In this document: positions 16,158 to 17,670 of the stretch, piece by piece | How positions within the stretch are numbered: position 1 is the first letter of the stretch | How the letters are laid out: the number at the start of each line of letters is the position of its first letter | NCBI GenBank assembly: GCA_964016885.1 | Contig: OZ024764.1 | Location: forward strand, 11,532,001 to 11,596,000 | Source of the DNA: Eledone cirrhosa | Lineage: Eukaryota | Direction of reading: 5' to 3' | DNA length: 64,000 bases | Made by a program: the position numbers and the translations under genes | Notes under the pieces: generated by a model | Databases searched by the model: none | The model's input: only the letters and a program-made list of their open reading frames with translations | What the model was told of the DNA's origin: nothing

Positions 16158-16290
16158 AGGCTGCGAATTGGTACAGTGGTTACAATGTCAGAAAGCTTTC
16201 TGCTTTCTGAATTCAAATCCTGCCGAGCTCAACTTTGCCTTTCATCCATTCAAGGTAGATGAAAAAAATACCAGTTTAATACTGGGGTTG
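16158..16290 (+). mobile_element. Old copy of tRNA-headed SINE family B
   Basis: ttcaaatcc B-box followed by 'aactttgcctttcatcc...aaataccagt'. Confidence 0.65.
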
Positions 16291-16556
16291 ATTGTTTTTC
16301 TCTATATCTTTCTCACTCTCTATCCTTCCATGGTTAGGTGATGAATAAAACCACCATACTTCCTGAAAAGTGATAGACAGTCTGTTTCTTGATGTTTGGC
16401 GTTTATCAAAACCATACACTCACCTGCCGCCGCTGAAAATTATAGAAGGTGGATTCTTATAGAATTCCAGTAATAATCAGGAGCTGATATACAGAGTGAT
16501 TGCCGGTCCAACAAAAATTAGGTATCAGGATTGCTGCTCTGAAATAGCGATGTATA

Positions 16557-17035
16557 CATGAATGTATGTATAGTATATTTGGCAATATACCGTATATTTA
16601 ATTACTAACATTTAGAAGACCATACACTATCAGTTTTAAACAGTGACTATGTCACTTACTTATTTTGTCAGCCACTCTCTCTGCTTTCGCTAAAAAGAAG
16701 TAAGTGACATAGTCACTACTTTAAAACTGATATATCAAATGGTCTTCTAAATGTTATTAATTAAACATACAGTATATTGCCAGATATACTATACATACAT
16801 TCATGCGTGGCTCTGATGATTGCCAAACAGCGTGAAACAGACTGTCAGCTTCTCTCCCTTATTTCACCGAAAAGAAGTAAGAGACATAGTCACTACTTTA
16901 AAACTGATATCGAATGGTCTTCTAAATGGTTTTAATTAAACATACGGTATATTGCTAAATATATTATACATACATTTATATATAAACATTGAGTTCTTCA
17001 TACGGATTGGACACCACCGTATATTTTGGTAGATT
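16557..17035 (+). mobile_element. Penelope-like pLTR structure: inverted arm plus two direct copies joined by a hammerhead
   Basis: 16557-16666 is inverted relative to 16692-16805; 16667-16805 is repeated at 16844-16980. Confidence 0.75.
16807..16852 (+). ncRNA. Type-I hammerhead ribozyme motif (GUC site)
   Basis: gtggct-CTGATGA-ttgc caaaca gcgt-GAAA-cagactg-TC-agc; the upstream repeat copy reads gtc-agccac, completing a 6-bp stem I. Confidence 0.8.
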
Positions 17036-17061
17036 TATCTACACACATTTATATATATATA

Positions 17062-17255
17062 TCATCATCATCATCATCATCATCATTTTACGTCCGCTTT
17101 TCCCTGCTTGCAAGGGTGGGACGGGTCTTATTCAGCACAGCATCTCTCCACTCGTCACGGTCCCCTCGTCATCTCCACCGTGAGCTTCAATGATCTGAGG
17201 TCTGTTATCACCACCTCCGCCCATGTTTTTCGTGGTCTTCCTTTACCACGTCTTC
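17062..17255 (-). mobile_element. RTE LINE extreme 3' fragment
   Basis: Homologous to 7257-7430; ends ...cttgcaagcagggaaaagcggacgtaaaatgatgatg. Confidence 0.85.
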
Positions 17256-17256
17256 T

Positions 17257-17670
17257 ATATACAATATATTAATAAATGGAAACTATATTTATAAAACCAT
17301 ATTTATTTTATTATACATATTTCAAGGGCAACCAAGGCAAATTATGGTGCGCTTTCATCAGATAAAATACAGATTTGTTTTATAAATAAATATTGACATA
17401 CCCGGAAAAAAGACAACCTTAACGGTTGGAACTTCCTGGATAGAACACCGGGTATGTCAATATTTATTTATAAAACAAATCTGTATTTTATCTGAAGAAA
17501 GCGCACCATAATTTGCCTTGGTTTCCCTTGAAATATGCATAATATAATAAAATAAATATGGTTTTATAAATATAGTTTCCATTTATTAATATATTGTGTA
17601 TTTACTCCACTAACTTGTTGAGTGCTTTATATCAGTTATAAAAATGTTTAAATTAAATATAACCTCTGCA
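17257..17670 (+). mobile_element. Fold-back Penelope-like element with a hammerhead in each arm and a 3' tail
   Basis: 17257-17405 is inverted relative to 17448-17601; hammerhead motifs at 17305-17368 (-) and 17485-17553 (+). Confidence 0.8.

What the first reader, a model, noticed from the sequence alone, without database searches (positions are those of the whole stretch)
16376..17035. Repeat unit begins at the ribozyme cleavage triplet
The first direct copy starts at 16667 with gtc-agccac, the GUC site plus the 3' strand of stem I. The full hammerhead (16807-16852) joins it to the second copy, giving a ~177-nt cleavage-to-cleavage monomer. This is the footprint expected if a ribozyme-cut or circular RNA was reverse-transcribed, as in non-LTR retrozymes. 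An inverted arm precedes it, and a decayed antisense hammerhead copy lies at ~16376-16414.
Basis: partly seen in the sequence, partly recalled or inferred. Interest (0 to 1): 0.75.

Follow-up and report, generated by a model that had tools for sequence, protein, structure and literature searches.

The report
Hammerhead repeat spread by Penelope machinery
This is one scrambled copy of a 315-base, protein-free repeat with a hammerhead-ribozyme motif that occurs thousands of times in this animal genome; its copies share fixed right ends and scattered left ends, so it was likely copied by the enzymes of Penelope-type jumping genes rather than starting at the ribozyme cut as first proposed.

Summary
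The coordinates are right, but the 177-nt monomer is not. The locus is one insertion of a dispersed family (2,046 exact hits of a 31-mer) whose hammerhead-to-hammerhead period is 315 nt. The 177-nt spacing is a junction seen only here among the 40 best-scoring candidates.

In 83 loci not chosen for their 5' end, 3 of 153 segments start within 3 nt of the cut (3.85 expected) and about 100 cover it. Genome-wide about 1.5% of anchored copies start at +1, within the range of a control region (mean 0.9%, peak 2.5%).

What is fixed is the 3' end: 127 of 153 segments stop at two sites about 34 nt apart, mostly beside (TA)n, and 27 of 32 inverted pairs use one site each. That is the Penelope-like (PLE) 'tail' footprint; RT+GIY-YIG PLEs in this genome show the same geometry.

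Verdict: a new non-LTR-retrozyme-type family, likely moved in trans by a PLE. Cleavage, circular RNA and the partner are untested or not found. The scan noted similar elements in other genomes.

The parts
16376..16665 (-). Inverted piece of the element: unit positions 25-315, ending at the GUC of its hammerhead (about 9% from the family consensus)
16376..16414 (-). Antisense hammerhead, U3-A8 core variant, stem II broken, 3' strand of stem I missing or badly decayed
16666..16803 (+). First sense piece: unit 312/313 to about 133 (3' site A); begins 3-4 nt before the scissile bond and has no hammerhead core upstream
16804..16984 (+). Second sense piece: unit 273 to site A; partial-tandem partner, 13% different from the first piece and lacking the distal half of stem I
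16807..16852 (+). Type I hammerhead motif: stem I 5' strand 16807-12, core 16813-19, stem II 16820-33 (U-U first pair, seen in 43 of 155 family copies), palindromic stem III 16837-45, predicted cut after 16846

Best explanation
The locus is one tandem-plus-inverted insertion of a 315-nt protein-free repeat with a type I hammerhead motif, likely mobilised in trans by a Penelope-like element (PLE). Shown: period, dispersal, two fixed 3' ends, scattered 5' ends, read-through across the cut site for up to about 3.5 units, covarying ribozyme core. Inferred mechanism: read-through transcripts of tandem copies self-cleave and probably circularise; a PLE RT-endonuclease nicks (TA)n DNA and primes inside the RNA at about 132 or 166 nt past the cut, often on both DNA strands, one at each site; cDNA runs back through the ligated or uncut hammerhead and stops at variable points, giving truncated, partial-tandem and head-to-head copies. 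In the window an inversion happened to break within 3-4 nt of the cut, and a second truncated copy created the 177-nt spacing.
For: Period 315 nt, 39% GC, stop codons in all six frames. 127 of 153 3' ends fall in two clusters, 72 and 55; 98 of these 127 touch (TA)4 against 149 of 1,700 random flank windows. 47 of 83 loci are head-to-head; 27 of 32 pairs with both ends canonical use one site each (P=4e-5), matching the 30-40-bp tail at one end described for PLEs (PMC8557442 passages) and two internal RT starts (PMC11167929). RT+GIY-YIG PLEs in this genome have pLTR hammerheads and two 3' ends at (TA)n. Core 3-8 pair: CG 111, UA 21, mixed 12, other 11 of 155; 89% of cells paired in the hammerhead model. 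The consensus folds as a circle at z -7.8. The unit closes on itself: 45 seamless crossings of 169/168 in 152 segments, and no shared abutting upstream extension among 175 flanks apart from re-fetched or duplicated loci. Units inside one insertion are closer than between loci (7.5% vs 9.8%, 36 pairs).
Against: No PLE sharing sequence with the unit was found in the 50 GIY-YIG loci examined (of 150 listed, 10,597 candidates), so the partner is unidentified. No long arrays: the longest run is about 1,100 nt and only 6 of 153 unbiased segments span two cut sites. Some insertions have very unlike units (L124, 18%), which one circle would not give. Copies are related, so core covariation may be one or two events; overall covariation beyond the core is weak (174 of 500 shuffles reach the count of doubly changed pairs). 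In vitro, 8 of 9 predicted Xenopus retrozymes did not cleave and the anole PLE did not need cleavage.
Confidence: 0.8

Rival explanations
1. One reading: copies start at the ribozyme cut because a cleaved 177-nt monomer or circle is the template.
For: In this copy the sense arm starts at unit 312/313 and the antisense arm ends at 315. 8 of 28 truncations in unit 314-10 sit exactly at +1 (nominal P about 0.01, post hoc). The single core could formally pair with the upstream GUC in a type III fold, which scores better than its own site in a short transcript (-29.4 vs -24.5 kcal/mol).
Against: Period is 315; 177 junction unique among 40 best candidates; 3 vs 3.85 expected 5' ends; +1 rate 1.5% against control mean 0.9% and peak 2.5%; only 1 true 3' end next to the cut among 557 anchored copies; both hammerhead folds lose to the free fold (-38.4), and the inverted arm blocks the type III fold (-52 vs -145).
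Confidence: 0.05
2. The repeat is only the terminal pLTR fragment of an autonomous PLE not yet found, and the tandems are ordinary partial-tandem insertions of truncated copies of it.
For: All insertion features are those of PLEs; two earlier scan notes reached this reading for other genomes; only 50 GIY-YIG loci were examined.
Against: Upstream of unit 169 copies continue into the same unit at one fixed junction (45 crossings in 152 segments), up to 3.5 units; no shared ORF-like extension in 175 flanks; tblastn of six PLE proteins hit only 4 of 145 element loci, and in the three read out the PLE piece is separated from the element by (TA)n.
Confidence: 0.1
3. The template is a linear, uncut tandem transcript; the hammerhead is a passenger inherited from a PLE pLTR and no circle is involved. 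Compatible with PLE mobilisation, differs only in the ribozyme's role.
For: Read-through and within-insertion similarity fit a homogeneous tandem source equally well; heterogeneous arrays exist (L124); anole PLE uses unprocessed RNA in vitro.
Against: Compensated core variant and a long stem I closed across the cut site; strong circular fold, better for sense than antisense (z -7.8 vs -4.8); no long source array found; mollusc retrozymes of 350-390 nt do form circles.
Confidence: 0.35
4. A DNA-level satellite, MITE or rolling-circle DNA element with a chance hammerhead-like motif.
For: Inverted arms superficially resemble terminal inverted repeats; clear target duplications are mostly absent (9 of 83 candidates, mostly low complexity).
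Against: One fixed end and one variable end per piece, arms of unequal length, two alternative 3' ends; full hammerhead core intact in 103 of 155 copies with C3-G8/U3-A8 swap.
Confidence: 0.03

Closest known systems
Animal non-LTR retrozymes (Cervera and de la Pena 2020, PMC7229834; Li, Clavereau and Pollet 2026, bioRxiv 10.64898/2026.07.22.740005)
   Same: Type I hammerhead in a roughly 300-nt, low-GC, non-coding unit that occurs in tandem and is predicted to be highly self-paired as a circle; co-occurs with PLEs.
   Different: Here mostly dispersed partial and inverted copies, at most about 3.5 units; no pLTR homologue found; cleavage and circles untested. In the parts I read, those papers argue PLE mobilisation from co-occurrence and pLTR homology, not from insertion ends.
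Endonuclease-positive Penelope-like elements and their pLTR hammerheads (PMC4209133; PMC8557442; PAc of Anolis, PMC11167929)
   Same: 5' truncation, partial tandems, inverted 5' copy, two 3' ends about 34 nt apart with the tail on one end only, AT-rich or microsatellite targets, U3-A8 core variant, palindromic stem III.
   Different: No ORF; the unit closes on itself at a fixed junction instead of running into an RT-GIY-YIG ORF.
Non-autonomous Chlamys-type PLE derivatives such as MRC1 (PMC8557442 passage)
   Same: Non-coding, multicopy head-to-tail insertions with PLE-type structure.
   Different: Those resemble an autonomous family at the 3' end and their clade is reported to lack canonical hammerheads; here a hammerhead is present and no partner was found.

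Membership tests
Non-LTR retrozyme | Type I hammerhead with conserved core | tested here: met
   Core intact in 103 of 155 distinct copies; stems paired in 89% of cells. No Rfam hit.
Non-LTR retrozyme | Short tandem unit (about 150-400 nt), low GC | tested here: met
   315 nt, 39% GC; runs up to about 1,100 nt.
Non-LTR retrozyme | No protein coding | tested here: met
   Stops in all six frames of the dimer.
Non-LTR retrozyme | Two consecutive units each with a complete hammerhead (Li et al. 'active' criterion) | tested here: inconclusive
   6 of 153 unbiased segments span two cut sites and more, but intactness of both cores was not scored; the window copy has one sense hammerhead and fails.
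Non-LTR retrozyme | Self-cleavage in vitro | not testable with these tools
   Needs an assay.
Non-LTR retrozyme | Expressed as monomeric linear and circular RNA | not testable with these tools
Non-LTR retrozyme | No PBS or PPT | not tested
   Not searched.
Penelope-like element (autonomous) | ORF with RT and GIY-YIG endonuclease | tested here: not met
   None in the unit; no tblastn hit of six PLE proteins in the window.
Penelope-like element (insertion footprint) | 5' truncation, partial tandems, inverted 5' copy | tested here: met
   47 of 83 loci head-to-head; 5' ends spread over the unit.
Penelope-like element (insertion footprint) | 30-40-bp tail present at one end only | tested here: met
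   Two 3' sites about 34 nt apart; 27 of 32 pairs use one each.
Penelope-like element (insertion footprint) | AT-rich or microsatellite target | tested here: met
   98 of 127 vs 149 of 1,700.
Non-autonomous PLE derivative | Sequence similarity to the pLTR of an autonomous PLE | tested here: inconclusive
   None in 50 GIY-YIG loci out of thousands of candidates.

The most novel reading that the evidence does not exclude
The family is a retrozyme whose thousands of copies record its replication: a PLE enzyme primes at two internal sites on a ribozyme-made 315-nt circle, runs through the ligated cut, and tends to stop when it comes round to the priming site again (5' ends at unit 169-173: 10 seen, 2.6 expected), with a small class starting exactly at the cut. 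This would be direct genomic evidence for the proposed PLE-retrozyme partnership and for a circular template.
Probability: 0.3. Interest if true: 0.62.

Novelty: new member of a known kind. Interest (0 to 1): 0.38.

Why it matters
Which enzyme moves animal retrozymes, and whether the template is a circle, is still stated as a hypothesis in the papers read. This family carries the PLE two-start 'tail' footprint on a protein-free unit, sits in a genome with long RT+GIY-YIG PLE reading frames, and has thousands of copies, so the question can be tested by counting ends and by an in vitro priming assay. The window copy itself is an ordinary, probably inactive insertion.

Tried and rejected
Rfam at gathering and E-value thresholds: no hammerhead family. 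Pfam family PF26215 is not in the library; PF01541 was used instead. Search for the autonomous partner: no homology in 50 GIY-YIG loci beyond three separate insertions of the element; no shared abutting extension in 175 flanks. Long source arrays: none among the 40 best candidates for a 604-nt query. Target-site duplications: 9 of 83 candidates of 7 nt or more, one of 13 nt, the rest low complexity. 3' ends at the cut as a family feature: rejected. One search used a mis-registered structure string and is void; one search replaces it; the last five distal-stem rows are off by one and were not used. The strand skew (669 vs 404) was not seen with an overlapping anchor (599 vs 583) and is unexplained, possibly a search artefact. 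The 5'-end peak at unit 83-87 is an artefact of the anchor starting at 88. Sequence look-up in earlier scan findings returned nothing. Literature searches listed no paper on this family or on insertion-end mapping of retrozymes; supplements and Repbase/Dfam were not seen, so it may already be catalogued.

Full report
Observation. The described pieces exist: two direct copies 175-177 nt apart, an inverted arm, a hammerhead motif at 16807-16852 and an antisense one at 16376-16414. Rfam does not recognise the motif, and the window hammerhead does not fold into the active shape on its own. The window lies in a 3.0-Gb animal genome; its repeats remind me of an octopus, which is recalled and untested.

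The family. A 194-nt query gave 2,359 candidates, 40 scored. Exact motifs gave 2,046 (31-mer), 1,182 and 2,665 hits (17-mers). With exact-match fractions of 30/92, 25/95 and 37/63 this means roughly 4,500-6,300 segments, a lower bound. A consensus from 115 loci converged on a unit of 315 nt, 39% GC, with stops in all six frames; I number it from the base after GUC. Mapped on it, the window reads: antisense 25-315 (16376-16665), sense 312 to about 133 (16666-16803), sense 273 to about 138 (16804-16984). The 177-nt spacing is therefore a junction between a piece ending at the family's usual 3' end and a truncated piece; only the window matched across it among the 40 best candidates. The three pieces differ from each other by 10-16%.

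I took the first 100 places of a motif at unit 88-118, which does not select on the 5' end; they fall in 85 fetched loci on one contig, 83 after dropping two overlaps. Segments under 25 nt and short microsatellite look-alikes were dropped and collinear pieces merged, leaving 153. Within 3 nt of the cut there were 3 5' ends against 3.85 expected, within 10 nt 7 against 11.6; 100 segment passes cover the site. Genome-wide, patterns that exclude the normal upstream sequence found 9 matches among 1,073 anchored copies, 7 of them truncations. A wider pattern gave 48 matches among 1,182; by eye 18 are indel or substitution variants, 2 ambiguous and 28 truncations, of which 8 start at +1. With a rough sensitivity of 0.45 this is 1.5% of copies, against 0.34% per neighbouring position (nominal P about 0.01, post hoc). 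In a control region (unit 200-213) I classed the first 100 of 264 matches by eye: about 71 truncations, 1 to 14 per position, mean 0.9% and peak 2.5% of 2,665 copies. So there is no pile-up at GUC; a small class starting at +1 is possible but not shown. For 3' ends, 5 matches among 557 copies held one true termination beside the cut, so the window's inversion at the cut is not a family trait. It resembles twin priming (term recalled from L1 work); similar near-matching breakpoints occur elsewhere in the unit, e.g. L068 and L046.

What is fixed. 72 of 153 3' ends fall at unit 126-150 and 55 at 160-180. Flanking (TA)n mimics the unit, so the true ends are near 132 and 166, about 34 nt apart (read from flanks). 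98 of these 127 ends touch (TA)4, against 149 of 1,700 random flank windows. 47 of 83 loci are head-to-head; of 32 pairs with both ends canonical, 27 use one site each (P=4e-5); 17 further pairs have one non-canonical end. PLE insertions are described as 5'-truncated, partial-tandem, often with an inverted copy and a 30-40-bp tail at one end (PMC8557442, passages), and an anole PLE primes at two internal RNA sites on AT-rich DNA (PMC11167929, parts 1-2 of 4).

Candidate enzymes. GIY-YIG gave 150 listed matches from 10,597 candidates. Of seven long frames scanned, all hit RVT_1 at E below 0.001 (two above the curated cut-off) and five hit GIY-YIG. The L176 family has a hammerhead in each flanking repeat, and it and the L179 family end at two sites beside (TA)n or similar repeats. 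None of the 50 loci examined shares pLTR sequence with the unit. The unit behaves as self-contained: 45 seamless crossings of the 169/168 junction in 152 segments, runs up to 1,103 nt, and no shared abutting upstream extension in 175 flanks other than re-fetched or duplicated loci. Because the junction lies at 3' site B, I infer that the unit was born as a partial-tandem PLE end.

The ribozyme. In 155 distinct copies the 3-8 core pair is C-G in 111, U-A in 21, mixed in 12 and other in 11; 103 have a fully intact core. The U3-A8 variant and dimeric action through a palindromic stem III are described for PLE hammerheads (PMC4209133, part 1 of 4). On 22 aligned copies 89% of cells pair, against 45-52% for slid controls, but covariation beyond the core is modest and copies are related. 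The consensus folds as a circle at -91.6 kcal/mol against -57.8 for 60 shuffles, antisense z -4.8. The window's own hammerhead lacks the distal stem I and is probably weak or dead (inference).

Template. Successive units in one insertion differ by 7.5% against 9.8% between loci (36 pairs), inverted arms by 7.3% against 11.7% (34 pairs), after dropping 11 duplicated loci; L118 has units 0.7% apart, L124 18%. This fits a circle or a homogeneous tandem transcript and does not separate them. 5' ends at unit 169-173, just past site B, were noticed in the unbiased set (6) and seen again in the best-hit loci (4 vs 0.86); together 10 vs 2.6 expected. The scan-wide P is 0.11 for the unbiased set and 0.44 for the best-hit set, so this is a lead only.

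Known or new. Non-LTR retrozymes are tandem type I hammerhead repeats of about 300 nt, expressed as circles in coral, mussel and axolotl, with PLEs named as the likely mobiliser (PMC7229834, passages and sections 14 and 17). A 2026 preprint argues PLE origin from co-occurrence and pLTR homology in vertebrates and leaves the mechanism open (parts 1-3 of 5). Four searches listed nothing on this family; supplements and repeat databases were not seen. Earlier scan notes describe like elements in other genomes; they sharpened the 'pLTR fragment' rival, which I tested here.

Noticed in passing
window 17257-17601: Palindromic element (arms 96-98% complementary) of a second dispersed family with a hammerhead-like core near 17486-17535 and apparently two alternative 3' ends; 16 other fetched loci hit it.
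   Followed up: partly
unit 169-173 (L039, L042, L054, L071, L080, L103, L008, L022, L119, L122): Excess of 5' ends just past 3' site B, 10 vs 2.6 expected; possible stop of RT on returning to the priming site.
   Followed up: partly
L176:2773-8815, L177:2488-5019, L178:1775-5062, L179:4222-6129: Penelope-like elements with open frames of 636-1,096 aa; L176 has 98% identical flanking repeats each with a U3-A8 hammerhead.
   Followed up: partly
L186:7718-9501; L182:108; L185:8481; L190:2853: At least three more hammerhead-bearing repeat families in this genome, one as three copies about 500 nt apart.
   Followed up: no
window 16195-16320 and 17030-17255: Flanks are common interspersed repeats (69 and 23 fetched loci hit); the left looks like a tRNA-derived SINE and the right like the 3' end of an RTE-type LINE (labels recalled).
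   Followed up: no
window 33466-33529: Weak Rfam tRNA match (29.9 bits), probably a SINE head.
   Followed up: no
L120, L123, L133, L145; L036 and L045: Element copies with shared flanks, indicating segmental duplications.
   Followed up: no
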